Positions 2,265 through 55,200 of a stretch of 62,780 nucleotides of DNA are shown here, in pieces. The notes beneath the pieces were generated by a model, which searched no databases, was not told the origin of the DNA, and saw nothing but the letters and a program-made list of their open reading frames with translations. The DNA lies in the IMG/VR virus record IMGVR_UViG_3300021197_001333, positions 1-62,780 of that record; one strand, given 5' to 3'. Positions within the stretch are counted from its first letter, which is position 1. Every line of letters begins with the position of its first letter. The position numbers and the translations under genes are program-made. The stretch is from a virus (taxonomy: Duplodnaviria; Caudoviricetes).

Positions 2265-2468
2265 ATGAAAGAGCCTTTATCAGTGTTTGAAATACATAGA
2301 ATAGCTTACATCAATAGTTTGATGAATCGTATTCATAACCATGCAAATTCACTGTATGAGAACCTTATGGACACAGACTTAAGTTCTGCTAGGCAAGACT
2401 TAAAAGAATTAAAAAGCGTTATAGAAGATGTCGAAGGGTCACTAGACGAGGGTTCAAACCCTCGCTAG
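2265..2468 (+). CDS. hypothetical coiled-coil protein, last gene of the plus arm
   Basis: 67-aa ORF whose stop abuts the stop of the convergent giant gene. Confidence 0.6.
   Translation: MKEPLSVFEIHRIAYINSLMNRIHNHANSLYENLMDTDLSSARQDLKELKSVIEDVEGSLDEGSNPR
2448..2463 (+). repeat. GAGGGTTCAAACCCTC near-palindrome, copy at the convergence of both arms
   Basis: Exact 16-mer (7-bp arms, CA spacer), extended by C/G to 2447-2464. Confidence 0.9.
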
Positions 2469-5400: not shown

Positions 5401-8400
5401 TTCCTTAGCTCTCTTTTTATAGCTTGAAGTTCTCTTCCTTTTCTGTTACGTTGAGTAATAGAATTTCTTATAGCAGCTATCTCCTTAGCAACAGAACGAT
5501 TAGCGGTAATACCAAGCGCTCTATCCATAGCTATGACAAGCTCCATTTGAACCTGTTCGCTTTGCTCTTGGTAAACGGGGTTATCACGTAGTATCTGTAA
5601 TGCTTTCTCCCTCACTTCTGCCGGGGTCTTCTCGGTTACTACGGTCTCCGCTTGTACTCCACGACGAGGAAACCTTCTTAATAAAGCTGTATCAGATATT
5701 TCTGATAGGGTAGGATTTGCTTCTCTTAACTCATTGAGCCTAGCCGCTCTCTCAAAAGGTGTCATACGTACTCCTGTACGTTTTACGGTAGGTGCCTTAA
5801 AAGTATCTATCTCAGACTGTATTTGTTGGAACAGTCGTATACCTGCAGGCATACCTCCTACAATATTTCCAAACTCAAATGGAACCCGTACATCACTAAA
5901 CGAATCTACGGTAGCTGCCATCACTCTTTTAATATCTTTCACGCTATGACCCCTTGACTTGAGAACTTCTCTTATAGAAGCCTCTGAGTACCCCTCAGCT
6001 CTTCCCCTTGTTATCACCTCAATCATAGAGTCCTCAGGACTAGGTGGCATAACTTCTTCCTTCTGTTGCCTTCTACCATAAGCAAGTGGGGTAAACTTTA
6101 CCCCATTGTATTTTAGGTAAACCCCTCCTCCTCCTCCACTCTTATTCGTCTTGCTCTTCAGAACGTCGTATCCCATAGGGCCAAACATTCTCCTCACCCG
6201 CTCCATGTGTATGTTTGGTGGAAAGAATCCTTGGTCATTCATACCGTATAACCTTGCTTTCCTGCTAGTCACCGCTATCCTATCATCTTTCTGCTGACGA
6301 ATAGAAGGCTTGCTTGGGTCGAACTCAGTGTTTGTGCCGTCTGCAAGTTTGATTTGGTTTGGCTCGAAAGTTACAATTTCAAATCCGTCATCAAAAATAA
6401 TACCGTCGTGTCCTTCTTTTAAAAGCTGTGCTTTAAACTCCTTGTTTGCTTTTCTTAAATCCGATGGAGAACTATACTTAGTTGTGTTATTCGTAGACCA
6501 ATTGATTAAATCATCCCACTGCTGCTTAGTAGCTTGGTAAGGGTTCTCCATGTTCAAGAAGAAAGCTCTCCCTTCCGTAAGCTTGTCTTTTGCTTGCGGG
6601 TTTTGAAGTCCGCTTATAAAAGCATATTGGTCAGCCCCTGACTTTGAGTTAGAAAAGAAAAATCCTAACTTACTTATGGGTGTATTAGTTAATTGACCTA
6701 ACTTTTTCTTATCGAAAACATCAAAGTCTTGTGAAGTACCGTGGTATACCACCTTCGGCTCTCCATTCTCATCCACCACTTTACTATCCCCAAACCATTT
6801 CTTAAACGCAGGTGTATTAACTAAATCTTGCTGTTCTGAGGTTAGGTTAGAAGGTACCTTCTGCTGACGAGGGGCAGGCTTCTTCTTATTCTCTCGTCTA
6901 CGACTTAGCACCTCACCCCATTCCTCTTTAGACCAATCTTTTACCTCAGATGTATTGTGGATGCTGTCATCTAACGCACCCTCATCTACCAATACAAACT
7001 CTCCATTCTCTCGCATACCCCAATTCCTAGTAGCGGTAAAGTCATTCCATAATATATTATAATCCATGAACCCTTCTAGCTCAAGCTCTCTCATGGCATC
7101 CTGAAGTTCTGCCGTTTTATTTTTAAAATCTTGAGGAGTAAACTCTTTCAGTGGCTTTAAGAACTTATTAACCTCCGTGTCATTACGGGGTACGTTCTCT
7201 ATAATAATATAATCTAACCCCTGCTCTTCGAGTTCAGGCACAAAACTACCTAGATAGTTTACATCTCCAAATCCTAAAGCGATATTCTGCTCCAACCCCT
7301 TAGGAGTTTTTGCAACCTTGATAACATTTTTCCCGTCAGGGTGCATATATACGATTCTCGATGAGCCACCTTTAGATACCACCTCTAGCTCATTTACATC
7401 TAAGACGTCTGAGATTACCTTCTGCTGTCTTCCTTCTGTCTGCTTCTTGATATACTCCTCAGGAGTTAAATCCTTAGGTAGTATCTCATTAAGAGATTCC
7501 ACATCAGCCTCTTCTATTTCCCTACCCTCACGAGTCTTCCTCGCGATAGTATTCATAAGGTCTATTACACTCTCATCTGTCTTACCAAAGTCCGTCCCTA
7601 ACTCAATACCAAATCTAAGAGCTAAGTCTTTAAAGAACTCTATGATTGCATTCTTAGCAGGTTTAGATAGTTGCTTGTAGTCTTTTGATGACGCCAATAT
7701 ACCAATCAACTCAGCAAGCCGTTCTTCGTTTTGGAACTGTGCTTGGTCTCCTGTATACTTAGCAGCGAAGGCATCAATCTTTTTTGCTAACGCACTATTT
7801 TTCTTAAGGCTTTTACGTACAGATAGCATCATTTTCTCTGCCGCCTTAGCTGCACGAGCATCTGTCTTTACTGAGTTAAGAAAAACAGCATGGAAAACCT
7901 CATGAGCCATCGTGCTTTCTGTAGCTGAAGATAAGTTTACGTGGATAACATTTTCGGTAGGTAGATATTCAGCTCTTCCCGCACGGCCTACAGCTTTTAA
8001 AAACTCTTCGTTACTCTCGTGGAGTAAGATACGTGTCTTAGGGAGAATCTTTTTTATAGCCTTAGCCGCTTTTCTAGCCGCTACTACGACCTTATTACGA
8101 CGGACTTTGCCTTGGGGAGTAAAGGTAAACTTACCTTTTTTATTTATACTAATATTCCCTTCTATCTTAGTAGGTGTTGATTTTTTAACAGAGGTATCAG
8201 TTCCTAATGACTCTTCTAAGTCACGAGCTTCTGACATCAGTTTCTCTTGTTCTATAAGTTGTCCTTGTAGTTCTGCAATCTCAAAATCATTGTCTTTACT
8301 TACCTCCTCTTGAAATTTAGTAAGCTTCTTTTTGTCATTTATACGTTGAGCAATACCTGCGAGCAAAGCTTTCTTACGTTTAGCTTCAAGCGTTCCTTCT

Positions 8401-11400
8401 CGAAAAGCTTTAACATCTTCTTTAGTACCCTTATCTACTACCTCTATGGTTTCTTCCTCAACATCCTCCGTCTCTGTAACTTCGTCTTCGGGCGTAATCT
8501 CTTCGGTAGTTTCTGTGATGACGTCTCCTTCTCCCACTCCTTCGCCATCTGTGGCTTGTTCTTGTACATCCACCTCCGTTGTGCTTGACTCTTGAATGGC
8601 ATCTTCTGTAGTTTGTATTGCCTCCTCAGGGGCAAAGGGTTGTAATTTTTCTTCAAGGAGTATAGAGGTTTCTTCGTCATTAACGACCTCGCTATCCTTT
8701 AAAAGTTTAGTGGCTTTACGTAAAGAAATATTTTCTATATAATTTAAAAACTCTGTCTTAGAGTACATAGTATTTCCAATACGGTAACTAGGCACAGTAG
8801 TACGTTTACCTATCTTACCAAAATCAAAATTAATAGACTCGACAGGTGACTCTGATAACTCATTAGTTCTTCCTATCTCTGCAATCTCTTTGTTAACAGC
8901 GGCAAGCTCTTCACTAAATATACTTCTAGAGTTAGTGGTAGCGTCAAGTCCTGCACGGATATCTAAAAGCTCCATCAATCTAGTCTGAACTTTTTTATTT
9001 ATACCTAAACGAGAAGGACCTGTAATATCAAGTATCTCCTGAGCCTCTTTTCTGAGACCTAAGTTTTCTAATATCCTTTGGTTTTGTTCCGCAGAAATTT
9101 TTCCTAACTTAAGCATCCTATTGCTCCACGATTGAATCTGTGTGTCCGAAGCTCGCTCACTCGCCATCAGCTTCATATTCATCAGATTTTCTGCTATCCT
9201 TTGATTATAATTTCCACGAGTAGATTTATATATATTCATAGCAGCAAAAGGAGTTGCCATACCTATCGACCCTCCGGCTTCTGCTATAATTTCTTTTACC
9301 GAAATTTCGTCTCCCACATTTAATTGAGCAAGAAGTTCTCCTGTAGCTTCGAAGGGAGCGTCAAGTGCTACAGCCTCCGCTGCAAATGCTCCAACTTTTT
9401 TTGCTTTACTTGCTACCGCGACAGGTTTAAACACTTTACCTGCAAGACCCGTCATAAGGAAATCCATTAAAGCAATAGGGATACCACGTTTTAACCCACG
9501 CTCTCTACCACGTTCCCATACTTTATCATCTTGTAGAGCTTCTCCTGCCTCTTCAGCGTTATTCATGTTATATCCCAACTCTCTACCCGCATCGAGAATA
9601 CCATTGGTATATTCTAATACAAGGTTAGTTGTTGCATATCCTGCCCGAAGACCATACATCCCTCCACTAATTAAACCTGCTGCCGTACCTATTCCCGGCA
9701 CTATACTACCCACACCTCCACCTGCTGCCGCACCTGTTGCTACAAAACTTGGTATAAGTTTCATTCCATAAGGAAGTATCTGCGCCAAAGAAGCTCCGGC
9801 CCACGTAAGTATTACCTCCGCAGGGTCACGCCTTAAAGCACTTCTTACTTCACGACTAAACCCCTCTTCTGCAGAGTTAAATCTAGACATAGCTCTCGAC
9901 TGCCTTCCGTCAACCCCATTTAGATAGTCTGTCATTTCTTCTGCAGCCCTATTCATATCCTCTGCTTCCTCTCCATACAATCCCATAGCTGAATTAAGTA
10001 TAACGTTACCCGCTTGACCGCTTCTATACCCATCCATAAACGCTACGCTAAACCCTTCAAGATTATCCACAAACTCTACTCCGATATCTTTATTGGCTTT
10101 GGCATCAAAGTAAGTTAGAGCCGTTTCATATTGAAAAGCGGCAAGTTCTTTTTTTCTTTCAAGGGAGTTTTGAATCTCTACTATTTCATTAAGTCTAATC
10201 TCTTGCGCCTCATTAGCAGGTTGGTATGTATTTAGTTGGTCTAGAGTAACACCAAATTCATTTAAGACAAGATTATTTAATCCCTTTTCAATAGTCTTAG
10301 CTTCATAATTTACATTGGCCGCCTGTTGAGCCGATGCTCGATGTTTCTTTTCAAGGTAGGTATCAAAGTTATCTTGCACCTCCATATAGTTCTCGCTATC
10401 TATTGTCTTCCACAACTTAGCTTCTTCTTCATCAAGAGTATCAATAATCTCCTGTGCATCACCACGCAGGCTTCCGTCTTCTCTAAAATACATTTTGTAC
10501 GCCTCTTGCTCCTTAGGGGTAAGGTCATCGTACTGTCCTTCGTCACCAAATAAAGTATTCTTTTGAATTGCTAATTCCTCTTCAAGAAACATACGAGTTT
10601 CTTTTGCCTTTAAATACTTATCGTAAACTTGACGGTCAGAGAGATAGTCTCTCCCATATTCATTGTAATATTTCTGAGCTTCTAAGTCTAAAGTGTTTAC
10701 AGTCTTCCAAGAGCCTTTTGCAAAAGCTTCAGCCTCTTCTTGAGAGTCGAATGTAAATACCTCATTACGCCTCTCAGCCTCTGCAATAGCCTCATCCATA
10801 CCAAGCTCTAACCAATCCTCTGCTCTAGGAGAAGAGCGCTGTACGGTGCTCCTAGGGAACAGGGTGGGTGCTACTTTATGAACCCCATCTTGTTCATAAG
10901 ACATGAACTTTACTGTGGAGTGAGTACCATCTTCATTCCATCTTTGGCTATCTCGCATCTCTCGTGCTCGCATAGCTTGAGCCATGGCATCCTCATTCTT
11001 TTCTCTCGCTTTTCTACGTTGAGACGTTGTAAAGATAAGTTCTAAGTCTTTAGCTTTTTCTTCCATTGCATCCCGCTCTGCTAAAGCAGCATCCTCTACT
11101 TTCCTCTTATCTTCTTTTATCTTCTGCGCTTCTGCATCAAATGGTACCCCATCCCACTGCTGACCTCTTGCATCTGTGAGAGGAGCTTGAGTAGACGCTC
11201 TTTCAAAAGGACCTGCATCGTCAGTTACAAGACCTTGTTGTATAGATTGTAATAAAGGTTCAGGAGCTTCTTCGGACGAGTCCAAAGAACCATCTTCCAA
11301 AGTAGATTCCATAGGCTCGTCTTTTTTTTTTAAGCCTAGGTTAGGAAAGAATTGCTCTGAAAACTCTTCAGGCGTTTTAGTATACAGCCCACTTTTATTA

Positions 11401-11525
11401 AGTGAGGAGTATAGTAATCCTACATTTTCTTCAGTAGAAAATTGCGCTTGGAACTCTTCAAAAGACTTGGTATAGTCTCCACTTTCAAAGAGACTATTAT
11501 ATAATAATTCAGTTTTATCTTCCAT
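2469..11525 (-). CDS. giant polyvalent virion/ejection protein (3018 aa) with zincin metallopeptidase, kinase-like and ART-like modules
   Basis: HEVFH...EERLAE zincin motif (7890-7904); GSSRIVY..VIKVAK..LVDEG kinase-like block; TPAFKKWFGDSKVVDENGEPKVVYHGT..GFFFS block typical of ART domains in phage polyvalent proteins; last gene of the structural arm. Confidence 0.7.
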   Translation of the reverse strand: MEDKTELLYNSLFESGDYTKSFEEFQAQFSTEENVGLLYSSLNKSGLYTKTPEEFSEQFFPNLGLKKKDEPMESTLEDGSLDSSEEAPEPLLQSIQQGLVTDDAGPFERASTQAPLTDARGQQWDGVPFDAEAQKIKEDKRKVEDAALAERDAMEEKAKDLELIFTTSQRRKAREKNEDAMAQAMRAREMRDSQRWNEDGTHSTVKFMSYEQDGVHKVAPTLFPRSTVQRSSPRAEDWLELGMDEAIAEAERRNEVFTFDSQEEAEAFAKGSWKTVNTLDLEAQKYYNEYGRDYLSDRQVYDKYLKAKETRMFLEEELAIQKNTLFGDEGQYDDLTPKEQEAYKMYFREDGSLRGDAQEIIDTLDEEEAKLWKTIDSENYMEVQDNFDTYLEKKHRASAQQAANVNYEAKTIEKGLNNLVLNEFGVTLDQLNTYQPANEAQEIRLNEIVEIQNSLERKKELAAFQYETALTYFDAKANKDIGVEFVDNLEGFSVAFMDGYRSGQAGNVILNSAMGLYGEEAEDMNRAAEEMTDYLNGVDGRQSRAMSRFNSAEEGFSREVRSALRRDPAEVILTWAGASLAQILPYGMKLIPSFVATGAAAGGGVGSIVPGIGTAAGLISGGMYGLRAGYATTNLVLEYTNGILDAGRELGYNMNNAEEAGEALQDDKVWERGRERGLKRGIPIALMDFLMTGLAGKVFKPVAVASKAKKVGAFAAEAVALDAPFEATGELLAQLNVGDEISVKEIIAEAGGSIGMATPFAAMNIYKSTRGNYNQRIAENLMNMKLMASERASDTQIQSWSNRMLKLGKISAEQNQRILENLGLRKEAQEILDITGPSRLGINKKVQTRLMELLDIRAGLDATTNSRSIFSEELAAVNKEIAEIGRTNELSESPVESINFDFGKIGKRTTVPSYRIGNTMYSKTEFLNYIENISLRKATKLLKDSEVVNDEETSILLEEKLQPFAPEEAIQTTEDAIQESSTTEVDVQEQATDGEGVGEGDVITETTEEITPEDEVTETEDVEEETIEVVDKGTKEDVKAFREGTLEAKRKKALLAGIAQRINDKKKLTKFQEEVSKDNDFEIAELQGQLIEQEKLMSEARDLEESLGTDTSVKKSTPTKIEGNISINKKGKFTFTPQGKVRRNKVVVAARKAAKAIKKILPKTRILLHESNEEFLKAVGRAGRAEYLPTENVIHVNLSSATESTMAHEVFHAVFLNSVKTDARAAKAAEKMMLSVRKSLKKNSALAKKIDAFAAKYTGDQAQFQNEERLAELIGILASSKDYKQLSKPAKNAIIEFFKDLALRFGIELGTDFGKTDESVIDLMNTIARKTREGREIEEADVESLNEILPKDLTPEEYIKKQTEGRQQKVISDVLDVNELEVVSKGGSSRIVYMHPDGKNVIKVAKTPKGLEQNIALGFGDVNYLGSFVPELEEQGLDYIIIENVPRNDTEVNKFLKPLKEFTPQDFKNKTAELQDAMRELELEGFMDYNILWNDFTATRNWGMRENGEFVLVDEGALDDSIHNTSEVKDWSKEEWGEVLSRRRENKKKPAPRQQKVPSNLTSEQQDLVNTPAFKKWFGDSKVVDENGEPKVVYHGTSQDFDVFDKKKLGQLTNTPISKLGFFFSNSKSGADQYAFISGLQNPQAKDKLTEGRAFFLNMENPYQATKQQWDDLINWSTNNTTKYSSPSDLRKANKEFKAQLLKEGHDGIIFDDGFEIVTFEPNQIKLADGTNTEFDPSKPSIRQQKDDRIAVTSRKARLYGMNDQGFFPPNIHMERVRRMFGPMGYDVLKSKTNKSGGGGGVYLKYNGVKFTPLAYGRRQQKEEVMPPSPEDSMIEVITRGRAEGYSEASIREVLKSRGHSVKDIKRVMAATVDSFSDVRVPFEFGNIVGGMPAGIRLFQQIQSEIDTFKAPTVKRTGVRMTPFERAARLNELREANPTLSEISDTALLRRFPRRGVQAETVVTEKTPAEVREKALQILRDNPVYQEQSEQVQMELVIAMDRALGITANRSVAKEIAAIRNSITQRNRKGRELQAIKRELRNLIRTHIPTSKDYSQAAINRLVRATAAVTEDNYRVQVEKVLQVIEKQRENMRAKVLKKLLTDVTRGARKTITDTKKNRVGSLDIQGQSFAEVFKKALTLAMASEKQQEKAMEEFRLLAEELETDEGIVALAKSASGETLTSKEERLVNIAVALDLVKNLPSMSLEEVQNLANDYAVAASMSRQELSATRKRRALETDALRQKVTDALRISNPELFHEDGTLIKDLNERRALLDAVREYWVEGKGKGLSARLKGQVKAAKAYWEIFDWKDGPQMVKSMFDSLKHLGTFMNSLNDTLYEEVFNRLNRMDNNSLKGYFTQQDFLRSLGYEAVLEQLFDTEMYKVEGIKSTVSGKKRNESFSKDQLLRLYALSLNPVQNRKLEAMGFTRVKMIKIEEYLGKDVTGFADKVVAYLSNEYYEGVNDVYRDVNDVNLNYVENYFPTMTTQADVNPKQLFDGDFNGIFNAESAPALRNRNDMTSDINLKGASFTSALESHVKTMEHYKAYAADTKKLNAIFNTNSVDGVLTVLGMKKMVKQSVNNAVNPDSGKNALNSSGKIFNALQTKFTSYALAFRLVQIGKQMTSFINAFENYTFRKSGKQNVLVDIIPFLMDYAAVMAQPRKYLKMATEMSPTFRYRLAQGVKGDLAGLESGSPTLTALENRQTRWAMFSRGFKKSAAAPTIVGDIMGVMGYMANYRRNIKNGMSEEKAVEAFNEYNQTQQTRRPSERAILQQNSNFIVRGFTMFGSTPILYINNVMQASTNILRSIKKGGIKSVNQKDVRRLALNLGAANAAFVAMSNLGLLLRGDDEERKEAMRQIRNAMLGLNLVYMTPFVGSTVKGIENYMTGNRRPADMGVNPFVSLFNKWKKAAKDDKEMEAMLQTVIEIGIGAQLAPFIALIETAGNLDEAGIEEIYDMIGYSESYREKAAKEGYEKPTRAYQRELDAKAKKKARQEANPAYIRDKEKAAEQREKERNKYRYNK
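8444..8602 (-). CDS. candidate overprinted small basic protein (MPFKSQAQRRWMY..., 52 aa) nested in another frame of the giant gene
   Basis: ATG at 8602 with A-rich upstream sequence. The MPFKSxAQRRWM..P..AKEWEKET pattern resembles small stand-alone phage proteins (recalled, not searched). It overlaps an acidic linker of the host frame. Confidence 0.5.
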   Translation of the reverse strand: MPFKSQAQRRWMYKNKPQMAKEWEKETSSQKLPKRLRPKTKLQRRRMLRKKP

Positions 11526-45706: not shown

Positions 45707-45864
45707 AATTTACTATATGTTATTACTGTTTCAAGATTACATTTCTCATTAGGACAAGCAAGGTTAGAAACGATACCCTTCTCGTCAAGGATGTCGTAGT
45801 CCTCATATGAGTGGTCTCCACCCCATATCAAAGGAGTAGAGCAGGTAGGGCAAGCCATAGTCAT
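45703..45864 (-). CDS. small zinc-ribbon protein between groEL and groES (53 aa, not in the ORF track)
   Basis: MTMACPTCSTPLIWGGDHSYEDYDILDEKGIVSNLACPNEKCNLETVITYSKL; ATGA overlaps with both groEL and groES. Confidence 0.65.
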   Translation of the reverse strand: MTMACPTCSTPLIWGGDHSYEDYDILDEKGIVSNLACPNEKCNLETVITYSKL

Positions 45865-47456
45865 GACTCCTCTACAGAACGAGCCATAGTGATAATGGCA
45901 TTAGTGCTTAAAATAGTAGAAGCAACAGAGACAGCACTCTGCAAAGCTACCTTAGTAACCTTCAAAGGGTCGATAATACCCATGTCATACATATTACCCC
46001 ATGTATGTGTTTTGGCATCTATACCTATGTCACGACCACCACCGTTTAACATTTTGTTTTGCTCCTTATCACCAAACTTAATACCCGCATTAGACATTAT
46101 CTGAAGCAAAGGAGCTCGCAAAGCAGCACATAGCATAAGGTCAGAAGGAGAAGCCCCCATATCTTTAGTGAGTTGGTATAAAGCAACACCCCCACCCGGA
46201 AGGATACCCTCCTCTAAAGCAGAACGTACAGCACACACCGCATCGTCTACACGGTCAAATAACTCTTTCTGCTCTAGGTCAGTCTGACCACCTACGTAGA
46301 TGACACCTATACCGCCCGTTAAAGTAGCTATACGAGAACGGATAAAGTCTTTCTCAATTTTACGAGTCTCCTCCTTAAGAGCTTCATGTAACTGACCTAC
46401 ACGAGCACTAACCTTACTCGTATGATTGCTATCATTCTGTAATAAGATACTGCTGTCACGACCAATAACAGCCTTAGAAACTATACCTAAGTCAGTAGGC
46501 TCCATAAGACTTAAATCGTCACCCGTCTTCTCACTAAAGTACGTAGCATCAACAGCGATAGCAATATCTTGCATCAACTCATGTTGCTTATATCCGAAGT
46601 TAGGAGGAGGGATAACACAAACCTTTAAACCGCTTTTCATAACGTTAGCAGCTAAAGTGTTCGTAACTTGCTGTGAGACAGGAGCTATGATAAGAAGCTT
46701 CTTGCCTGTAGGGATGATAAAATTCAATATCTTCTCTATCTGTAAAACACTGCCAATCTCAGCGTCACTAACCAAAATATGACAGTCGTCTAAAATACAC
46801 TCGTCACGAGATTGGTCATTGACAAACAAAGGAGCAGTATAACCACGGTCTATCTTTAAACCCTTAGTAGTCTCAAAAGTGGTCTCGCTAGATTGACTGT
46901 TCTCAACAGTAACAATCCCATCCTTGCCAACAGCCTCATAAACATTGGAGATAATCTCACCAACAACAGGGTCATTGTTAGCAGAGATAGTAGCAACGTC
47001 ACGTAAACGCTCACCACTTACTTTCTTAGAACCCTTTTTTAAATCATCAAGAACAGAGTTCATACCCGTTACTAGATTACGTAAAACCTCAGTCTTATTA
47101 TTGTCGCCAATAAATTCCATACCCGCATGAACCAAAGCCTCCGTTAAAACAATAGCAGTAGTAGTACCATCACCCGCCTCAGCAGCAGTGCGGTCACTAG
47201 CCTCCTTCATCATCCGGACAGCTAAATTTTCTACAGGGTCCATAAGGTCAACAGCCTTAGCTACAGTAACACCATCCTTGGTGACCGTAATACCGTGAGT
47301 GTGATTGGGAGACTCTATAAGAACAGTATGACCGCTTGGACCTAAAGTACTCTTGACAGCTTGAGACATCTGAGTGATGCCCGATATTAATCCTGAACGA
47401 CCCTCGTCGTCAAACTGTAATTGTTTGGGAGAATATCCCGAAGTGTTTTTAAACAT
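45861..47456 (-). CDS. groEL: chaperonin GroEL
   Basis: AVKSTLGP, VTKDGVTVAK, AGDGTTTA, EEGILPGGG, GIIDP.KV. Start probably ATG 47456, since the track start 47480 lies inside the -7 element 47478-47485. Confidence 0.95.
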   Translation of the reverse strand: MFKNTSGYSPKQLQFDDEGRSGLISGITQMSQAVKSTLGPSGHTVLIESPNHTHGITVTKDGVTVAKAVDLMDPVENLAVRMMKEASDRTAAEAGDGTTTAIVLTEALVHAGMEFIGDNNKTEVLRNLVTGMNSVLDDLKKGSKKVSGERLRDVATISANNDPVVGEIISNVYEAVGKDGIVTVENSQSSETTFETTKGLKIDRGYTAPLFVNDQSRDECILDDCHILVSDAEIGSVLQIEKILNFIIPTGKKLLIIAPVSQQVTNTLAANVMKSGLKVCVIPPPNFGYKQHELMQDIAIAVDATYFSEKTGDDLSLMEPTDLGIVSKAVIGRDSSILLQNDSNHTSKVSARVGQLHEALKEETRKIEKDFIRSRIATLTGGIGVIYVGGQTDLEQKELFDRVDDAVCAVRSALEEGILPGGGVALYQLTKDMGASPSDLMLCAALRAPLLQIMSNAGIKFGDKEQNKMLNGGGRDIGIDAKTHTWGNMYDMGIIDPLKVTKVALQSAVSVASTILSTNAIITMARSVEES

Positions 47457-47493
47457 AAGATTAGATTTAATTTGAAACAAAGGTATGATAGAA

Positions 47494-47614
47494 ATGTCAA
47501 ACTTCCTTCTCCCTATAGAGAGAGAGAGAAAACTATATATATATATTTTTCTTCCTTATGGGTGAAGGTGAAAAATAAGCATTACTGACAGAGAGATTGA
47601 TAATCAAAAAGTTA
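47494..47614. other. origin-like module A: (AG)n, (TA)n, T tract, AAAAATAAGCATTA, IHF-consensus site
   Basis: AATCAAAAAGTTA at 47602-47614 matches WATCAANNNNTTR; same element order as 59134-59279. Confidence 0.4.
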
Positions 47615-47732
47615 AGAAAAAATTATCGTCGTGAAATCGACACTAGACCGTCATTTATCATGTAATAAAGGGCATAAGAAAGGGGAAACCGTTAAACAGA
47701 AACCCCTTCCTACCAATCAATTAATGCATGGA

Positions 47733-47915
47733 CTACATCAATCTAAACATCTCTTTGCGTCTTTCAGCAAGTGCAATCCCATCTGCAATACACTCAGCTT
47801 TATAACGATGCTTCATCTCTTGACGTAAACGAGCAGCCTCAGCAATACCCGATTCGCCTACAGGACGATTGTTAATTAAACGACCATCCTTTATTGTTAA
47901 TCCTTCAGCTTTCAT
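47733..47915 (-). CDS. hypothetical protein, first gene of the late arm
   Basis: 60-aa ORF with ATG and A-rich leader. Confidence 0.55.
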   Translation of the reverse strand: MKAEGLTIKDGRLINNRPVGESGIAEAARLRQEMKHRYKAECIADGIALAERRKEMFRLM

Positions 47916-48100
47916 AGTAATAGTTTTTAATACAAGGCTAAGGTACGCTAAAAAATTTTGTTAGATATGTATAGTGTTTGGGTTCCCCCCCACTCCACGC
48001 GACGAGGTGCGATTCCCAAAACGATTTTTTTTTTGCGCTCTGAGATAAAAACCTTTGCGCCCGTCCGAAATTTTTGGCGTTTTTTCTAGACATCCACACC

Positions 48101-48171
48101 GCCCCATTGCGCCCCATTGCCGTCCGTCCGTCCGTCCGTTGTTTGTCCGTCCGTCTGTCCGTCTGTCCGTC
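48101..48171. repeat. GCCCCATTGC x2 followed by a degenerate (YGTC)n tetramer array
   Basis: Directly visible tandem repeats in the non-coding strand-switch region. Confidence 0.85.
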
Positions 48172-48385
48172 ATTACTTCGCGCCCTCCTTTGGTGCTATG
48201 CTCAGAGAGAGAGAAAGAGCAACAAGGGTTTAAACCCTCACAAGTGTTTACAACCTCCTCTTTGCCTCTGTCCGACCTTTTGCACCCTTAACAATTTGCC
48301 GTCATTCATTCGTTTGTTTGGTGCGCTCAAATTAGTATTATACTATTAATGTACTAAGAATGTAAATTAATTGCACATTGTTGTA

Positions 48386-48413
48386 GAATTGCACTAAAAT
48401 TGTACTATATTTG
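48386..48413 (+). promoter_or_regulatory. early promoter 1 (GAATTGCAC-N11-TATATTTG)
   Basis: TAnnTTTG -7 element; same upstream block and spacing as at 51251 and 54030. Confidence 0.7.
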
Positions 48414-48472
48414 TACATGCGGCAGCAATAATGCTACGTAAAACAGCGTAAAACGCTAAAAATCAATAAGTT

Positions 48473-49141
48473 ATGAGTATTTTATTACCAATCGAAACAC
48501 AATTTGTTAATTCCTTTACCTATGAAGGAGGGAGTTTACAACAGTTGCACACATTACAAACGGCTGAGGGCAATTTGAAAAAGAAGCAATTTGAAAAATC
48601 ATTAGCCCAAGCCCCCCAAGTGAGAGCCGCCCTAATCCATTTCGCATCTAAGGACGGGCAAAGGCAGTTAGCGGATTCGGGGTTGAGTTGGAACAAAGGT
48701 GAATTTGTGGAAAAAGCGTTAAGATATTCCGACCGTTCACAAGCTAATTTGCTTGTAAGAATAGCTGACAGAAATGATGCACACCCCGAACTTATCACTA
48801 AGTATAAGCGTGAACAGACGCGACTAGCTACAGCAGGACAGAAAGCCCCGCGAAGCATCCAACATTTTGACAAATGGAGTCGCGCTTTATTAGACCAAGC
48901 CAACGAAACGGGCGAAACTATTGAGGACGTTGTGGAGGGTGCTGAGGTCGAAGCTACAGCCGAACCGAGCAACAGTACGAACATGGCGCAGTTTCGTTTT
49001 AAACATCCCATACACGGTAATATCGTGGTGAACATCGACGAAAATGGTGCCATAACAACTACTAACACAGTTGAGCATATCGGCGAAGCACTTGCAACGT
49101 TCAGAGCAATGATACAAACCCCGTTAGAGGTTGCCGCATAA
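48473..49141 (+). CDS. first early protein, unknown function
   Basis: 222-aa ORF downstream of early promoter 1. Confidence 0.7.
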   Translation: MSILLPIETQFVNSFTYEGGSLQQLHTLQTAEGNLKKKQFEKSLAQAPQVRAALIHFASKDGQRQLADSGLSWNKGEFVEKALRYSDRSQANLLVRIADRNDAHPELITKYKREQTRLATAGQKAPRSIQHFDKWSRALLDQANETGETIEDVVEGAEVEATAEPSNSTNMAQFRFKHPIHGNIVVNIDENGAITTTNTVEHIGEALATFRAMIQTPLEVAA

Positions 49142-49153
49142 CAGCTATAAAGT

Positions 49154-49169
49154 GAGGGTTCAAACCCTC
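49154..49169 (+). repeat. GAGGGTTCAAACCCTC motif fused to hammerhead 1
   Basis: Exact copy, extended AGT...ACT (49151-49172). Confidence 0.9.
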
Positions 49170-49171
49170 AC

Positions 49172-49224
49172 TGCTGTCGGACAGTGTGTACTGTTCCTGA
49201 TGAGTTCAAAAGAACGAAACAGTA
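49172..49224 (+). ncRNA. type III hammerhead ribozyme 1 (predicted cleavage after C49178)
   Basis: Stem III UGCUGU/ACAGUA with GUC site; stem I GGACAG/CUGUUC, loop UGUGUA; core CUGAUGA (49197-49203); stem II GUUC/GAAC, loop AAAA; GAAA (49216-49219). Confidence 0.92.
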
Positions 49225-49246
49225 ATTTAATTTAATATATTATATT

Positions 49247-50182
49247 ATGGGTGTAAAATTTGAGAATGACAGTAACGCGAGTCGTGGTGAGATGTCAAGC
49301 TACCACAGAAAGCCGAGTTTTAGAAACTACAACGGCGGCGCGTCAATTAGCGATGTAGCAAACGTTAAACCGATTGACCGCGATGCCATGCGCATGTGTT
49401 CAGCCCTAGAAGTGAGGGCAAAATTTACAATCGGATTTGAGATTGAAAAAAACCGACTCGGACGCGGTTCAGTTCGTCCATATCCTTTATTCTGTGGGTT
49501 CGAAACGGATAGCAGTTGCGGTTATGAGGCTGTGACCAATATTTTACCACTTATCGGGGCGTGTGTGTGGCGTGATAAGGTGTACAATATGTTTCACGAG
49601 GCTGAGAGGGTTATTGATGACCAATGGAGTCCGACTGACTACCGTTGCGGCGGCCATATGACTGTAGCTGTCGAGGGCTTAAGCGGTGCTGAGTTACTTG
49701 AGAAACTTAGACCAATATCGGGCATTATCCTTGCGCTATATCGCAGACGTTTAAACCATCACTATTGCAACGAAAATATGACCATGTTGCCACGTGGACA
49801 TGCAAACGTGTACAACGGCTCAGGACGTAGCAGTGTAGCGAATGTCAAGGAAAATACTGTTGAATTTCGCATCCCTTCGCGCATCCAAAACGTGAACACT
49901 TTAAAAAGACGTTACGAACTGATGTACGTTTTAATAGATAGCGCAATGAAAGGGCACAGCCTAGCAAAGGTACAGCGTAGATACACGCCGATTGTACTAG
50001 CCATGTACGATGGTGATGTTGATAAGGCTAACAAGGTTATGCAGTTAGGTAAAGCGTTTTGTAAGTTCATTAAGAGTGGCAAAATTAACGCTGATGTGTT
50101 ACCCTTCGTCGATAGACACGGACGCAACACAGACCTTTACACGAGGTGTGCAAGGGAACTAGAAAACCCCTCACAATGGTGA
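49247..50182 (+). CDS. putative amidoligase (COOH-NH2 ligase, glutamine-synthetase-like fold)
   Basis: IGFEIE, DSS...EAVT, CGGH.(T)V, TVEFR motifs. Confidence 0.7.
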   Translation: MGVKFENDSNASRGEMSSYHRKPSFRNYNGGASISDVANVKPIDRDAMRMCSALEVRAKFTIGFEIEKNRLGRGSVRPYPLFCGFETDSSCGYEAVTNILPLIGACVWRDKVYNMFHEAERVIDDQWSPTDYRCGGHMTVAVEGLSGAELLEKLRPISGIILALYRRRLNHHYCNENMTMLPRGHANVYNGSGRSSVANVKENTVEFRIPSRIQNVNTLKRRYELMYVLIDSAMKGHSLAKVQRRYTPIVLAMYDGDVDKANKVMQLGKAFCKFIKSGKINADVLPFVDRHGRNTDLYTRCARELENPSQW

Positions 50183-50196
50183 GGCGGTAATGGGGT

Positions 50197-50212
50197 GAGG
50201 GTTCAAACCCTC
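50197..50212 (+). repeat. GAGGGTTCAAACCCTC motif fused to hammerhead 2
   Basis: Exact copy, extended GGT...ACC (50194-50215). Confidence 0.9.
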
Positions 50213-50215
50213 ACC

Positions 50216-50266
50216 GCTGTCGGGTGATATATTTCACTCCTGACGAGTCCATAAGGACGAAACAGC
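50216..50266 (+). ncRNA. type III hammerhead ribozyme 2 (predicted cleavage after C50221)
   Basis: Stem III GCUGU/ACAGC with GUC site; stem I GGGUGA/UCACUC, loop UAUAUU; core CUGACGA (50240-50246); stem II GUCC/GGAC, loop AUAA; GAAA (50259-50262). Confidence 0.93.
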
Positions 50267-50305
50267 AATCTAATTAACGGGTGATGGCCTACCATTAAAG
50301 ATGTT

Positions 50306-50533
50306 ATGACAAAGATTTATTTACCCCTGTTAAAAGAACAGAAAGAAAGAAAGATATTATTTTCTTCTACGCTGTCCGAGTACAGATTTGAAACGCCTGA
50401 GAGTACACGACATGAATTAAGCGAAAGTTTATATGTCGAGGACTACAAGGAATTTGACAGACGGGAAAGACTGTTAAAAGATGACAGTTTTTTTAACGCT
50501 TCACAGTATAACTATAATATAATCCGAAACTAA
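50306..50533 (+). CDS. hypothetical early protein
   Basis: 75-aa ORF after hammerhead 2. Confidence 0.6.
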   Translation: MTKIYLPLLKEQKERKILFSSTLSEYRFETPESTRHELSESLYVEDYKEFDRRERLLKDDSFFNASQYNYNIIRN

Positions 50534-50534
50534 G

Positions 50535-50993
50535 ATGAGAAAAATAACAAGAGATTCAATCAACGCCTTTATGAATGACAGACCTTTCAAAAGGCAAAAC
50601 ATGCGAGTAAGAATATTAATACACAGAAGCAACAGCGGAGAACCTCGACGCTCAGTATCAACAGAATTGCTGTTACATGATAACGTAATCGCATCGCGCT
50701 CTCATGGGTTAAACAGAACTATATCTATCACAACTTGCGGATGGCAAACCACCACCACCAAAGAAAGATTAAACGGAATTGAGGGCGTAAGCATTGTACA
50801 GCGCAACTTTCAATGGTACTTGAATGGTGTGGCGTGGGATGGGAATTGGATAGACTTAAATGGTGAGTTTTTTGATTCTGACCAAGACGAAACGGATAGA
50901 CTTAGACTACATGATGCCCTTAACGGCTTAAACAATCAACAGACCGAAGATGAGGCTTGTGATATGTTGTATGGAGTAGATAATAATCAATAG
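50535..50993 (+). CDS. hypothetical early protein
   Basis: MRKIT...LH.N.IA...CGW.T.TTKERLN...Q..F.WY motif seen in phage early proteins (recalled). Confidence 0.65.
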   Translation: MRKITRDSINAFMNDRPFKRQNMRVRILIHRSNSGEPRRSVSTELLLHDNVIASRSHGLNRTISITTCGWQTTTTKERLNGIEGVSIVQRNFQWYLNGVAWDGNWIDLNGEFFDSDQDETDRLRLHDALNGLNNQQTEDEACDMLYGVDNNQ

Positions 50994-54111: not shown

Positions 54112-55200
54112 ATGTGTGTAATTATTATCAAACAAAAGTCTAACATCATCTCGAAAGAGACGTTAGAAAATTCGGCACGAATTAATCCTCATGGACTTGG
54201 GATTACGTTCCTCGATACCTTCGAGACCACCTATCATAAGTCATCAGAGTACGAGTCATTATTAACCGAGCGACCTTTTATTGCTCATTTTAGATATGCT
54301 ACAGTCGGGAAGGTTGGGTTATCCAACACACACCCTTTTGTATGTGGTGAGTTAAAGCATGAGTTACTTATGCAGAACGGAACTATTAAGGGGTTGGGAA
54401 CTAAAGAGAAATGCGACAGTAAAGTGTTAGCAGAAAATCTAGGTGATATACCTCGCGAACAATGGAAGGCAGAGTTAAGTAAGTACGATTCAAGATTCGT
54501 TTCCATCAACACCAAAGACAAATCTTTTCAGATATATAACAGAGATAAATACACCAAGCGCGATGGTGTGTGGTACTCTAAGTCAAATGTATTGCAAGAG
54601 AATGTCGTGGCTGTTTACGGAACGCTAAAGAAAGACAATAGTAACTATCACAATTACTTAAGGTCATCAAGGTTTTTAGGCAGTGGAGAGACACAGACTA
54701 AATACCCTTTAATCATCAGTGGCTTACCCTATCTTCTATCTTCGGAGGGAGTAGGACACAATGTAGAGGTTGATGTGTTTAAGGTCAATGACACCACCTT
54801 TGCCGACCTTGATAGGTTGGAAGGACATCCTACATGGTATCAGAGACGAGAGGTTCCAATTAAGATGAACGATGGTAGAGTGATAACGTGTTGGATATAC
54901 TTCAACGACACACAACCATTAGGCAATCACCAATGTCATAAAACATATGCGCCTCAACCTATTGTAAAAAAGTTTCCTTTTTCTCATTACGAACCGATGC
55001 AAAGAAGTGTTGATAATCATAATCAATCACGATTATGGGATGACATATTTCCTCAAGAGGAAACAGATGACAAGCCTTATTGCATTGAGTGTTACAACGA
55101 CTTAATCAAAGATGAGTTGTCGGGAGATAGCTTTCAATGTATAGCGTGTGGAAGCGAGTACACCACAGAAGAAGTTTCAAGTAATCATTTTAATATATAA
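54112..55200 (+). CDS. class II glutamine amidotransferase fused to a gamma-glutamylcyclotransferase (AIG2-like) domain and a C-terminal zinc ribbon
   Basis: N-terminal MC nucleophile, NPHG.G, AHFRYAT.G...NTHPF, QNG, DS; then VAVYGTLK...LDRLEGHP.WY.R; CIEC...CIAC. Confidence 0.85.
   Translation: MCVIIIKQKSNIISKETLENSARINPHGLGITFLDTFETTYHKSSEYESLLTERPFIAHFRYATVGKVGLSNTHPFVCGELKHELLMQNGTIKGLGTKEKCDSKVLAENLGDIPREQWKAELSKYDSRFVSINTKDKSFQIYNRDKYTKRDGVWYSKSNVLQENVVAVYGTLKKDNSNYHNYLRSSRFLGSGETQTKYPLIISGLPYLLSSEGVGHNVEVDVFKVNDTTFADLDRLEGHPTWYQRREVPIKMNDGRVITCWIYFNDTQPLGNHQCHKTYAPQPIVKKFPFSHYEPMQRSVDNHNQSRLWDDIFPQEETDDKPYCIECYNDLIKDELSGDSFQCIACGSEYTTEEVSSNHFNI

What the first reader, a model, noticed from the sequence alone, without database searches (positions are those of the whole stretch)
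49151..50266. Amidoligase gene bracketed by two type III hammerhead ribozymes: a self-excising, potentially circularising phage mRNA cassette
Seen in sequence: two complete hammerheads in direct orientation lie in the intergenic gaps on either side of the single ORF 49247..50182. Cleavage after C49178 and C50221 would release a 1,043-nt RNA (49179-50221) holding the whole ORF. Established: hammerhead cleavage leaves 5'-OH and 2',3'-cyclic phosphate ends, which RtcB-type ligases or reverse ribozyme ligation can join. Tandem hammerheads make circles in retrozymes and viroid-like RNAs. Joining these ends would rebuild a full chimeric hammerhead (GCUGU of copy 2 pairs with ACAGU of copy 1). Inference: the phage cuts its early polycistron without protein, giving a stabilised 5'-OH or circular mRNA for a host-modifying enzyme. 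I know of no described phage system with this layout.
Basis: partly seen in the sequence, partly recalled or inferred. Interest (0 to 1): 0.95.

Follow-up and report, generated by a model that had tools for sequence, protein, structure and literature searches.

The report
Hairpin-capped hammerhead ribozymes flanking phage gene
Two genuine self-cutting hammerhead RNA motifs sit on either side of one gene in a marine phage and most likely chop a long early transcript into single-gene messages, a layout already described for prophages in 2011, while the proposed circular mRNA has no support so far.

Summary
Two complete type III hammerheads lie on the + strand at 49171-49225 and 50214-50268 (Rfam RF00008: 37.8 and 43.8 bits, below the 48.5 gathering score). 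Cleavage would follow C49178 and C50221 and release 1,043 nt. Structure is backed by covariation in 25 relatives (97% of cells paired, 12 of 15 pairs compensatory) and by an independent motif-seeded set (127 of 142 hits complete, against 24 of 2,840 shuffled).

Each hammerhead directly follows a stable hairpin (25 of 25; 90 of 116 in the second set). The enclosed gene matches no Pfam family. It has a glutamine-synthetase-like fold and conserved synteny with a GATase/gamma-glutamyl-cyclotransferase gene, so "amidoligase-like" is reasonable.

The conserved feature in relatives is one hammerhead just after this gene (13 of 16 and 26 of 31 loci). Bracketing is the minority case (3 of 16, 2 of 31).

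The closest relative has four hammerheads. Both window copies are mosaics of them, so single-ORF cassettes were gained or lost with junctions inside the ribozymes.

Best reading: self-cleaving punctuation of the early operon. Hammerheads flanking prophage genes, and possible circles, were already described by Perreault et al. 2011. Nothing here supports circularisation: no RNA data exist and the phage encodes no ligase.

The parts
48473..49141 (+). First ORF of the + strand arm (222 aa, unknown function). Its stop lies 10 nt before hairpin 1.
   Evidence: homologs sit upstream of the ligase-like gene in 8 of 26 and 20 of 80 loci
49151..49172 (+). Hairpin 1: 9 bp with a UCAA loop and core GAGGGTTCAAACCCTC. 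It directly abuts stem III of HH1.
49171..49225 (+). Type III hammerhead HH1. Stem III is 49172-49177 with 49219-49224; stem I is 49179-49185 with 49190-49196; core CUGAUGA is at 49197-49203; stem II is 49204-49207 with 49212-49215; GAAA is at 49216-49219. Predicted cleavage is after C49178.
   Evidence: RF00008, 37.8 bits, E 1.4e-4; MFE is the hammerhead fold; covariation
49179..50221 (+). Predicted 1,043-nt RNA released by cleavage at both sites (5'-OH, 2',3'-cyclic phosphate). It would be a monocistronic mRNA with the folded HH1 body at its 5' end and hairpin 2 near its 3' end.
   Evidence: Inference and from known hammerhead chemistry; not observed
49247..50182 (+). 311-aa protein with a glutamine-synthetase-like fold (amidoligase-like). 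It matches no Pfam or PHROG family.
50194..50215 (+). Hairpin 2: same core as hairpin 1, up to 10 bp. It directly abuts stem III of HH2.
50214..50268 (+). Type III hammerhead HH2. Stem III is 50216-50220 with 50262-50266; stem I is 50222-50227 with 50234-50239; core CUGACGA is at 50240-50246; stem II is 50247-50250 with 50255-50258; GAAA is at 50259-50262. Predicted cleavage is after C50221.
   Evidence: (RF00008, 43.8 bits, E 2.8e-6)
50274..50299 (+). Leader element between HH2 and the next start codon. Near-identical copies follow hammerheads HHa and HHd of the closest relative.
   Evidence: single copy in the window
50306..50993 (+). Downstream cistrons: a 75-aa ORF (50306-50533) and a Kyano_Gp96-like ORF (50535-50993).
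54112..55200 (+). Fusion protein: class-II glutamine amidotransferase-like region (weak) plus a GGACT/AIG2-like gamma-glutamyl cyclotransferase domain. It is the syntenic partner of the ligase-like gene.
   Evidence: phrog_2520, 8.8e-21; PF06094, 3.9e-23; PF13230, 2.5e-4, below cut-off

Best explanation
The window is a complete ~63-kb marine tailed-phage genome. Its + strand arm carries replication and host-takeover type genes. That arm starts with a 222-aa ORF, a GS-fold amidoligase-like gene, and small ORFs.

The first two intergenic gaps each hold a composite module: a stable hairpin immediately followed by a type III hammerhead. As the polycistronic RNA is made, each hammerhead folds and cuts itself after GUC (C49178, C50221).

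The upstream RNA is left ending in hairpin + 6 nt + 2',3'-cyclic phosphate. That end cannot be polyadenylated and is a poor 3'-exonuclease substrate. The downstream RNA starts with a 5'-OH on the compact ribozyme body, followed by a short AT-rich leader and the start codon.

The net effect is protein-free 'punctuation' of the operon into separately stable, context-insulated mRNAs. In this phage the amidoligase-like gene becomes a 1,043-nt monocistronic message.

Shown here: the motifs, their covariation, the attached hairpin, and their conserved intergenic, same-sense placement. Inferred: cleavage in vivo and the consequences for stability and insulation.

The repeated hairpin-hammerhead modules also mark the DNA crossover points where single-ORF cassettes have been gained or lost between close relatives.
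For: Genuine ribozymes:
- Two full-length RF00008 matches, with every core position intact.
- MFE folds equal the hammerhead junction.
- In 25 distinct copies, 97.1% of 375 cells pair, against 70.3% in shuffles (0 of 500 reach it) and 34-44% when partners are slid. 12 of 15 pairs show compensatory change, including 6 of 6 in stem I.
- Independent set seeded only on core plus stem II (80 loci returned of 104 stretches). 127 of 142 hits have stem I at 5 of 6 or better, stem III at 4 of 5 or better, and H17. The shuffled-upstream control gives 24 of 2,840. 103 of the 116 distinct sequences are new.

Composite module:
- A hairpin is present upstream in 25 of 25 copies, and in 24 of 25 it ends 0-2 nt before stem III. 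The same holds for 90 of 116 in the second set. At least eight different hairpin sequences are involved.

Placement:
- All copies lie on the sense strand. A hammerhead box sits 54-93 nt after the stop of the homologous gene in 14 of 26 gene-seeded loci.
- A hammerhead lies within 120 nt after the stop in 13 of 16 and 26 of 31 evaluable loci.
- Series of 2-5 hammerheads per locus occur in 32 of the 73 loci with at least one complete hammerhead (80 searched). Spacing has a median of 1,133 nt. The family model gives 32 hits in 19 of 27 records.

Precedent:
- Perreault 2011 (passages) showed cleavage of such tandem prophage arrangements in vitro and in E. coli.

Cassette indels:
- The closest relative (90% protein identity) has the order ORF222-HHa-ORF89-HHb-ligase-HHc-ORF68-HHd.
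- Window HH1 has the 5' flank and stem I of HHa and the stem II and 3' flank of HHb.
- Window HH2 has the 5' flank of HHc and the stem I and 3' flank of HHd.
Against: - Both matches score below Rfam's gathering threshold. No related copy exceeds it either (0 of 26 records).
- Cleavage was not observed.
- The stem II pairing in my alignments was partly imposed by the selection regex.
- Rows from one phage group are related, so shuffle controls overstate significance. The slid controls and the many distinct stem I sequences mitigate this.
- The stabilising or insulating consequence is inference. In hosts with RNase J, a 5'-OH end can instead trigger decay (recalled from work on glmS).
- The host is unknown.
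- The first gene pair is assumed to be co-transcribed. Promoter and terminator scans are uninformative (28 promoter-like sites against 20.6 expected).
Confidence: 0.7

Rival explanations
1. First reader's model. After double cleavage, the 1,043-nt RNA is joined end to end, either by a host RtcB-type ligase or by the reverse hammerhead reaction. This rebuilds a chimeric hammerhead and gives a circular, exonuclease-proof, translatable mRNA for the ligase-like enzyme.
For: - Two same-sense hammerheads flank the ORF.
- The ends have the right chemistry for RtcB or reverse ligation (established knowledge, recalled).
- The chimeric stem III has 5 contiguous pairs in the window and in the closest relative.
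- Perreault 2011 mention circular products as a possibility.
Against: - Bracketing of this gene is not conserved: 3 of 16 gene-seeded and 2 of 31 motif-seeded evaluable loci. Most relatives have only the downstream ribozyme.
- The circle-closing stem III reaches 4 or more contiguous pairs in 40 of 55 adjacent pairs. Cognate stems reach it in 127 of 129, and random between-locus pairs in 56%. It is therefore not under the constraint seen on cognate stems.
- No RtcB (PF01139) or RNA_ligase (PF09414) is encoded in the phage.
- Beyond a 5-bp stem, nothing holds the ends together.
Confidence: 0.07
2. Cleavage serves to shut genes down rather than to stabilise messages. The 5'-OH end exposes the downstream RNA to 5'-exonuclease decay or to torpedo-like termination. 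The hammerheads would then act as attenuators that grade expression down the operon.
For: - Hammerheads occur in series along the operon.
- A recurrent subset has non-canonical U-U or A-A in place of G10.1-C11.1. This could tune cleavage efficiency.
- The glmS precedent, in which a 5'-OH product is degraded by RNase J1 (recalled, not read here).
Against: - The downstream genes include conserved partners such as the GATase/GGACT gene, which are unlikely to be systematically silenced.
- The folded ribozyme at the new 5' end and the conserved hairpin at the new 3' end look like protective structures.
- The host and its RNases are unknown.
Confidence: 0.1
3. The modules matter mainly at the DNA level. 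The ~80-nt hairpin-hammerhead repeats would be recombination sites that shuffle single-ORF cassettes, like the PeSL motifs of T4-type phages. Their RNA cleavage would be secondary or merely tolerated.
For: - Mosaic hammerheads sit exactly at the two cassette indels between the window and its closest relative.
- Hammerhead number varies among close relatives (2 against 4).
- The hammerhead interval recruits many different contigs in one metagenome run (depth 122.8 against about 2-12 nearby).
Against: A pure DNA repeat would not keep an invariant catalytic core with compensatory changes in all three stems across more than 100 distinct copies. Selection clearly acts on the RNA fold. The two roles are compatible.
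Confidence: 0.08
4. The motifs are decaying or neutral relics of a ribozyme-bearing mobile element and have no present activity.
For: Scores lie below Rfam's gathering threshold.
Against: Every core nucleotide is intact in both copies, and there is strong covariation and conserved placement.
Confidence: 0.03

Closest known systems
Clustered hammerheads flanking genes in prophages (Perreault et al. 2011, PMC3088659; passages read)
   Same: - Multiple same-sense hammerheads lie in intergenic gaps and flank single genes or short gene blocks in phage DNA.
- The proposed role is to process long phage transcripts into gene-length mRNAs.
- Circular or spliced products are mentioned as a possibility.
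- The flanked genes are of the host-takeover kind (ardA there).
   Different: - Here the host is an uncultured ~60-kb marine lytic-type phage group.
- The copies are all type III in the window.
- Each is fused to an upstream hairpin.
- One copy is tightly linked to the 3' end of a GS-fold ligase-like gene.
- I could not see that paper's supplements, which may already list metagenomic relatives.
Type III hammerhead family, Rfam RF00008 (viroid, satellite and genomic hammerheads)
   Same: The catalytic core, the three-way junction with open stem III, and short stems I and II with loops are all the same.
   Different: - Scores are 37.8 and 43.8 bits, below the 48.5 gathering score.
- The motifs are DNA-encoded in a phage operon rather than part of a replicating circular RNA.
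- A conserved extra hairpin lies 5' of stem III.
Retrozymes and viroid-like circular RNAs with paired hammerheads (PMC5680766 and PMC7761336: search listing and abstract starts only)
   Same: Two same-sense hammerheads delimit a unit of roughly 0.3-1 kb whose ends could be ligated.
   Different: - Those units are non-coding, fold into rods that align the ends, and have been shown to be circular.
- Here the unit is an mRNA, no end-aligning structure is evident, no circle has been shown, and the bracketing is not conserved.
PeSL promoter-terminator cassettes of T4-type phages (PMC2839356 and PMC4122927: search listing and abstract starts only)
   Same: Repeated intergenic regulatory motifs flank small variable ORFs and sit at insertion/deletion junctions between close relatives.
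   Different: The repeat here is a hairpin plus a ribozyme, not a promoter plus a terminator. Only one genome pair was examined.
Synthetic ribozyme insulators such as RiboJ
   Same: A type III hammerhead next to a hairpin, placed between the upstream context and a cistron, so that the mRNA 5' end is fixed whatever lies upstream.
   Different: This is a natural element, and the hairpin lies upstream of the ribozyme (on the 5' product) rather than downstream.
Phage amidoligase / GATase / gamma-glutamyl cyclotransferase gene sets of podoviruses (PMC5498523, one passage read; Iyer et al. 2009 recalled)
   Same: A GS-fold ligase-like gene is syntenic with a GATase-GGACT gene among early or replication genes.
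   Different: The ligase-like protein does not match Pfam Amidoligase_2. Its substrate is unknown.

Membership tests
Hammerhead ribozyme, type III (Rfam RF00008) | Catalytic core: C3 U4 G5 A6 N7 G8 A9, G12 A13 A14, the A15.1-U16.1 pair, and H at position 17 | tested here: met
   Both copies carry every core residue. The core columns are invariant in 25 of 25 aligned copies.
Hammerhead ribozyme, type III (Rfam RF00008) | Three-way junction with stems I and II closed by loops and stem III open | tested here: met
   cmscan alignments cover model positions 1-54. The MFE folds match. 97.1% of cells pair and 12 of 15 pairs are compensatory.
Hammerhead ribozyme, type III (Rfam RF00008) | Score at or above the curated gathering threshold (48.5 bits) | tested here: not met
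   37.8 and 43.8 bits. This is a curation threshold, not a structural feature. E-values are 1.4e-4 and 2.8e-6.
Hammerhead ribozyme, type III (Rfam RF00008) | Loop I - loop II tertiary contacts needed for activity at low Mg2+ | tested here: inconclusive
   The first loop I base (U) and one loop II A are invariant in 25 of 25 copies. No 3D modelling was done.
Hammerhead ribozyme, type III (Rfam RF00008) | Site-specific self-cleavage giving 5'-OH and 2',3'-cyclic phosphate ends | not testable with these tools
   No RNA data were available for this stretch.
Pfam Amidoligase_2 (PF12224) | Match to the family HMM at its cut-off | tested here: not met
   No match for the protein, for 23 of 23 homologs at E up to 5, for 10 of 10 distant representatives, or in the six-frame genome search at E up to 1. 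The only link is an Atlas feature search: 27 of 30 hits fall in clusters where 12% of members carry PF12224.
Pfam Amidoligase_2 (PF12224) | Glutamine-synthetase-like carboxylate-amine ligase fold | tested here: met
   The AF2 model has pLDDT 88.5 and pTM 0.88. The top Foldseek PDB hits are all glutamine synthetase or gamma-glutamylmethylamide synthetase, with E 2.9e-5 to 2e-3 and probability 0.90-1.0. TM is only 0.25-0.34.
Pfam Amidoligase_2 (PF12224) | Gene-neighbourhood link to class-II GATase and gamma-glutamyl cyclotransferase genes (defining context recalled from Iyer et al. 2009) | tested here: met
   ORF 54112-55200 combines GATase_4 (weak) with GGACT. A homolog lies downstream on the same strand in 15 of 26 gene-seeded loci and 33 of 80 motif-seeded loci.
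Ribozyme-delimited circular RNAs (retrozyme/viroid-like) | Covalently closed RNA (back-junction) | not testable with these tools
   No RNA data were available to look for a back-junction.
Ribozyme-delimited circular RNAs (retrozyme/viroid-like) | Ends able to rebuild a ribozyme stem on joining, conserved across units | tested here: inconclusive
   The window pair gives 5 pairs. Across 55 adjacent pairs, 40 reach 4 or more, against 127 of 129 cognate stems and 56% of random pairs.
Ribozyme-delimited circular RNAs (retrozyme/viroid-like) | An RNA ligase at hand | tested here: inconclusive
   The phage encodes none. The host is unknown.
PeSL-like mobile regulatory cassettes | Repeated intergenic motif at the junctions of ORF insertions or deletions between close relatives | tested here: met
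   Both cassette differences between the window and L002 have their junctions inside hammerheads. Only one genome pair was examined.
PeSL-like mobile regulatory cassettes | The motif consists of an early promoter plus a terminator stem-loop | tested here: not met
   The motif is a hairpin without a U-tract plus a ribozyme.

The most novel reading that the evidence does not exclude
After double self-cleavage, the 1,043-nt amidoligase-like message is circularised by a host RtcB-type ligase or by the reverse hammerhead reaction on the rebuilt 5-bp stem III. The phage would then make a translatable, exonuclease-proof circular mRNA. The same hairpin-hammerhead repeats would double as the DNA crossover points that move such single-gene cassettes between phages.
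Probability: 0.07. Interest if true: 0.85.

Novelty: new member of a known kind. Interest (0 to 1): 0.4.

Why it matters
The biological role of DNA-encoded hammerheads in bacteria and phages is still open (review PMC6765202, passage read).

This phage group offers a dense natural data set. It has more than 100 distinct type III hammerheads, almost always fused to an upstream hairpin. They are placed between cistrons of one conserved early operon and vary in number between close relatives.

That makes specific hypotheses directly testable with simple constructs:
- ribozyme punctuation of the operon
- protection of both new RNA ends
- insulation of each cistron from its context
- cassette exchange at the ribozyme repeats

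It also shows that Rfam's gathering score misses this whole subfamily. None of the copies found here reaches 48.5 bits.

Tried and rejected
RNA evidence. The look-up of sequencing runs listed no RNA holder: 22 runs were listed, 20 hold part of the stretch, and none is on record as RNA. Read laying on X5, X11, X21 and X22 laid contigs only, so it gives no ends, no strand and no back-junction. X21 and X22 laid nothing. The one joint in X11 (49232 to 50306, one contig, side 30) is ambiguous. It may be a relative's hammerhead aligned to HH1 rather than a deletion, so I draw nothing from it.

Pfam and PHROG naming of the enclosed protein failed. A profile search against PDB sequences gave only chance-level hits (E 0.23 and 0.49).

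PaP3 lead. PMC5498523 lists PaP3 among phages with the amidoligase set, and Perreault 2011 mention a PaP3 hammerhead variant. Rfam at E up to 1 found no hammerhead in AY078382. Its ORFs 49 and 50 are not significantly similar to the window protein. The lead was dropped.

Host. The genome-contig scan gave only two MAG fragments, so there is no host inference.

The phage DNA collection has no nucleotide relative and one protein relative (MW202828.1). That record has no hammerhead by either model.

The promoter and terminator scan was uninformative.

One hammerhead of L006 that scored 42.6 bits was not listed in the multi-locus cmscan. I treat this as a filter effect.

Literature searches for later work on phage hammerheads and mRNA circles found nothing beyond Perreault 2011 and reviews. 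Subscription journals and supplements were not searchable.
Full report
WHAT IS THERE

The window is a whole IMG/VR virus record of 62,780 bases that CheckV rates as complete.

The - strand, from about 2.5 to 47.5 kb, carries late genes:
- terminase
- portal
- virion proteins
- a GroEL-like chaperonin
- a 3018-aa polyvalent protein

The + strand arm runs from about 48.4 kb to the end and on to 2.3 kb. It carries early or replication-type genes:
- a Sak-like annealing protein
- an exonuclease
- primase/helicase
- a helicase
- an HNH endonuclease

The finding lies at the very start of this + arm.

THE OBSERVATION

Read directly, both intergenic gaps contain a complete hammerhead. Each has a 5' strand of stem III, GUC, a 6-7 bp stem I with a 4-6 nt loop, CUGAUGA or CUGACGA, a 4-bp stem II with a tetraloop, GAAA, and a 3' strand of stem III.

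Rfam at gathering thresholds reports nothing. With E-values it reports RF00008 at 50214-50268 (43.8 bits, E 2.8e-6) and at 49171-49225 (37.8 bits, E 1.4e-4). Both are full length on the + strand, against a gathering score of 48.5. The next best matches in the window have E of 3.9 or more.

C17 is C49178 in HH1 and C50221 in HH2, so the predicted product is 49179-50221, or 1,043 nt. It holds ORF 49247-50182. Each ribozyme sequence folds alone into the hammerhead junction as its minimum-energy structure. HH1 does so also with its upstream hairpin included.

IS IT MORE THAN A PATTERN MATCH?

I fetched 25 IMG/VR loci that encode relatives of the enclosed protein and one GenBank phage. RF00008 matches at E of 0.01 or less occur in 17 of these 26 records. 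None is over the cut-off, and the same search rings in 1 of 14 control genomes.

I collected 25 distinct copies with a regex that demands only three things: the two boxes, a 12-nt insert, and 3 of 4 stem II pairs. I then aligned them. On my stated structure:
- 97.1% of 375 cells pair. Shuffles give 70.3% (0 of 500 reach the observed value). Sliding the partners gives 33.9-44.0%.
- 12 of 15 pairs show changes on both sides: 6 of 6 in stem I, 3 of 5 in stem III, and 3 of 4 in stem II.
- The core columns are invariant.

A second, gene-independent sample came from scanning IMG/VR for a degenerate 24-nt core-plus-stem-II pattern. It found 104 stretches, of which 80 loci were returned. Among those loci:
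- 127 of 142 hits have stem I at 5 of 6 or better, stem III at 4 of 5 or better, and H at position 17. After shuffling the upstream 40 nt, 24 of 2,840 do.
- 116 are distinct, and 103 of those are not in the first alignment.

These are therefore true, selected hammerheads. They form a subfamily that Rfam's threshold misses.

A COMPOSITE MODULE

Every one of the 25 copies is preceded by a stable hairpin of 7-13 bp. In 24 of 25 it ends 0-2 nt before stem III. In the second set, 90 of 116 meet a stricter test.

The hairpin sequence differs between phages but often keeps a UUCAAA-type loop. In the window it is GTGAGGGTTCAAACCCTCAC. Its 16-nt core occurs at 10 sites in the genome. Some sites are followed by T-runs like terminators, and some lie inside ORFs.

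The stop codons of the upstream ORFs lie 10-12 nt before the hairpins.

HOW CONSERVED IS THE LAYOUT?

The conserved feature is a hammerhead right after the gene:
- The box lies 54-93 nt after the stop in 14 of 26 gene-seeded loci.
- Among loci where the whole gene and 200-nt flanks are present, 13 of 16 gene-seeded and 26 of 31 motif-seeded loci have one within 120 nt after the stop.
- Only 3 of 16 and 5 of 31 have one within 120 nt before the start. Both occur in 3 of 16 and 2 of 31.
- The two sets share some contigs; for example, L087 is the same contig as L002.

Some relatives have a type I hammerhead-like motif upstream instead (RF00163, 26.9-33.5 bits, gathering score 34).

Many loci carry series of hammerheads. 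32 of the 73 loci with at least one complete hammerhead (80 searched) have 2-5, and the spacing runs from 294 to 4,022 nt with a median of 1,133. The family model R1 finds 32 copies in 19 of 27 records: two in the window, and four each in G001 and G004. With filters off, R1 finds no further copy in the window.

So the ribozymes punctuate the operon generally. The two-sided bracketing of this gene is one variable outcome.

CASSETTE TURNOVER

The closest relative is L002 (G001), with 90% protein identity. Its gene order is ORF222 - HHa - ORF89 - HHb - ligase-like gene - HHc - ORF68 - HHd - ORF75 homolog.
- Window HH1 shares its 5' flank, hairpin and stem I with HHa, and its stem II and 3' flank with HHb.
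- Window HH2 shares its 5' flank with HHc, and its stem I and 3' flank with HHd.

Two single-ORF cassettes thus differ between the genomes, and both junctions lie inside the ribozymes. This is reminiscent of PeSL-mediated shuffling in T4-type phages (listing only).

In one metagenome run the hammerhead interval recruits contigs to a depth of 122.8, against about 2-12 nearby, and those contigs have unrelated flanks. This fits a repeat shared by many phages.

THE GENE

The 311-aa protein has 821 relatives at E of 0.001 or less among the 1,475 scored candidates, mostly on contigs of about 55-63 kb. It has 777 representatives in the profile search.

It matches no Pfam or PHROG family. This was tested on the protein itself, on 23 homologs, on 10 distant representatives, and on the six-frame genome.

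An AlphaFold model built from 23 sequences is confident, with pLDDT 88.5 and pTM 0.88. Its best PDB matches are all glutamine synthetases or gamma-glutamylmethylamide synthetase. E ranges from 2.9e-5 to 2e-3 and probability from 0.90 to 1.0, but TM is only 0.25-0.34. The Atlas feature search points to clusters in which 12% of members carry PF12224.

Invariant residues include GFE-x-EK, GFE-x-D-x-SCG-x-E, CGGH and E-F-R.

A GATase-like/GGACT fusion gene at 54112-55200 lies downstream on the same strand in most relatives, and directly adjacent in the distant ones. This matches the phage amidoligase/GATase/cyclotransferase gene sets described for podoviruses (one passage; Iyer et al. 2009 recalled).

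'Amidoligase-like, GS fold' is a fair name. 'Member of Amidoligase_2' was tested and is not shown.

MECHANISM

Best-supported reading (0.7): the modules self-cleave the polycistronic early RNA.
- The upstream fragment ends in a hairpin plus 6 nt and a 2',3'-cyclic phosphate.
- The downstream fragment begins with a 5'-OH on the folded ribozyme body, then a 21-37 nt AT-rich leader.

Two consequences follow from established RNA-decay biology, which I recall rather than read here. The cyclic phosphate would block poly(A)-assisted 3' decay. The 5'-OH would avoid 5'-monophosphate-stimulated attack. Each cistron would gain a context-independent 5' end, as in synthetic ribozyme insulators (recalled).

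Cleavage itself is inferred from the intact core and the covariation. It is also supported by Perreault et al. 2011, who saw all ribozymes cut in three tandem prophage arrangements in vitro and one in E. coli (passages).

THE CIRCLE HYPOTHESIS

The chimeric stem III would form, with 5 pairs. Four points weigh against the circle model:
- Bracketing is not conserved.
- Only 40 of 55 adjacent pairs could rebuild a stem of 4 or more pairs. Cognate stems do so in 127 of 129 cases, and random between-locus pairs in 56%.
- The phage encodes neither RtcB nor an RNA ligase.
- No end-aligning structure is evident beyond that 5-bp stem.

I give this model 0.07. It remains the most novel reading that is not excluded.

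NOVELTY AND VERDICT

Perreault et al. 2011 published the gene-flanking hammerhead layout in phage DNA, its proposed role in trimming polycistronic RNA, and the idea of circles. The 2019 review still calls the function open. My searches found no later work that resolves it. Subscription journals and supplements could not be searched.

The finding is real but is a new member of a known kind. Three added details are useful: the fused upstream hairpin, the tight link to the 3' end of a GS-fold ligase-like gene, and the mosaic ribozymes at cassette junctions.

Interest 0.4.

Noticed in passing
window 2448, 24705(-), 48224, 49154, 50197, 51178, 51814, 54079, 55601, 56480: The 16-nt hairpin core GAGGGTTCAAACCCTC (up to 2 mismatches) occurs at 10 sites, against 0.03 expected. 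Some sites are followed by T-runs like terminators (24705 on the - strand, 51178). Others lie inside ORFs (51814, 55601, 56480). Related phages use different stems but similar UUCAAA-type loops.
   Followed up: partly
L009:2177-2223, L011:2177-2223, L016:2407-2453 (also regex hits in L003, L006, L010): A second, type I hammerhead-like motif with a very short stem III (GGTTAA-CTGATGAG...GAAA-CTTGAGTC) recurs in intergenic gaps of related phages. It matches RF00163 at 26.9-33.5 bits (gathering score 34).
   Followed up: partly
L013:3404-3460, L017:5002-5058, L050:1500-1556, L055:1500-1556 and about a dozen loci of L057-L136: A recurrent subset of the type III hammerheads has U-U or A-A in place of the G10.1-C11.1 pair (for example CTGATGATTCC...GGATGAAA). 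These are often the last copy in a series and are possibly tuned, slower ribozymes.
   Followed up: no
window 50274-50299; L002 about 2099-2126 and 3839-3866: A conserved leader (TTAACGGGTGATGGCCTACCATTAAA and near copies) follows some hammerheads just before the next start codon. It is single-copy in the window and can form a small AAUGG/CCAUU hairpin.
   Followed up: partly
window 49152-49245 and 49232/50306 in run X11: Contig depth spikes to 122.8 over HH1, and loose ends on both sides show that many different contigs share the ribozyme. One contig joins 49232 to 50306, skipping 1,073 nt. This could be a variant without the gene or an alignment effect.
   Followed up: no
window 2469-11525 (-): A 3018-aa polyvalent protein with an ART-PolyVal ADP-ribosyltransferase domain (PF18760, 1.4e-23).
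   Followed up: no
window 45861-47480 (-): A phage-encoded GroEL-like chaperonin (phrog_5725, 5.5e-129) next to the divergent ~1-kb intergenic region at 47481-48472, which separates the two arms.
   Followed up: no
run X5: One run labelled with an organism name (coded 'organism A') rather than as a metagenome holds 0.96 of the sampled words and lays at 99% or more. This is a possible lead to a culture containing the phage or its host.
   Followed up: no
L001 (MW202828.1) 2308-4032: In this freshwater-spring phage the ligase-like domain is the C-terminal part of a 574-aa protein, directly followed by an annotated gamma-glutamyl cyclotransferase gene. No hammerhead was found in the record by either model. 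Many representatives are likewise longer fusions (400-770 aa).
   Followed up: partly
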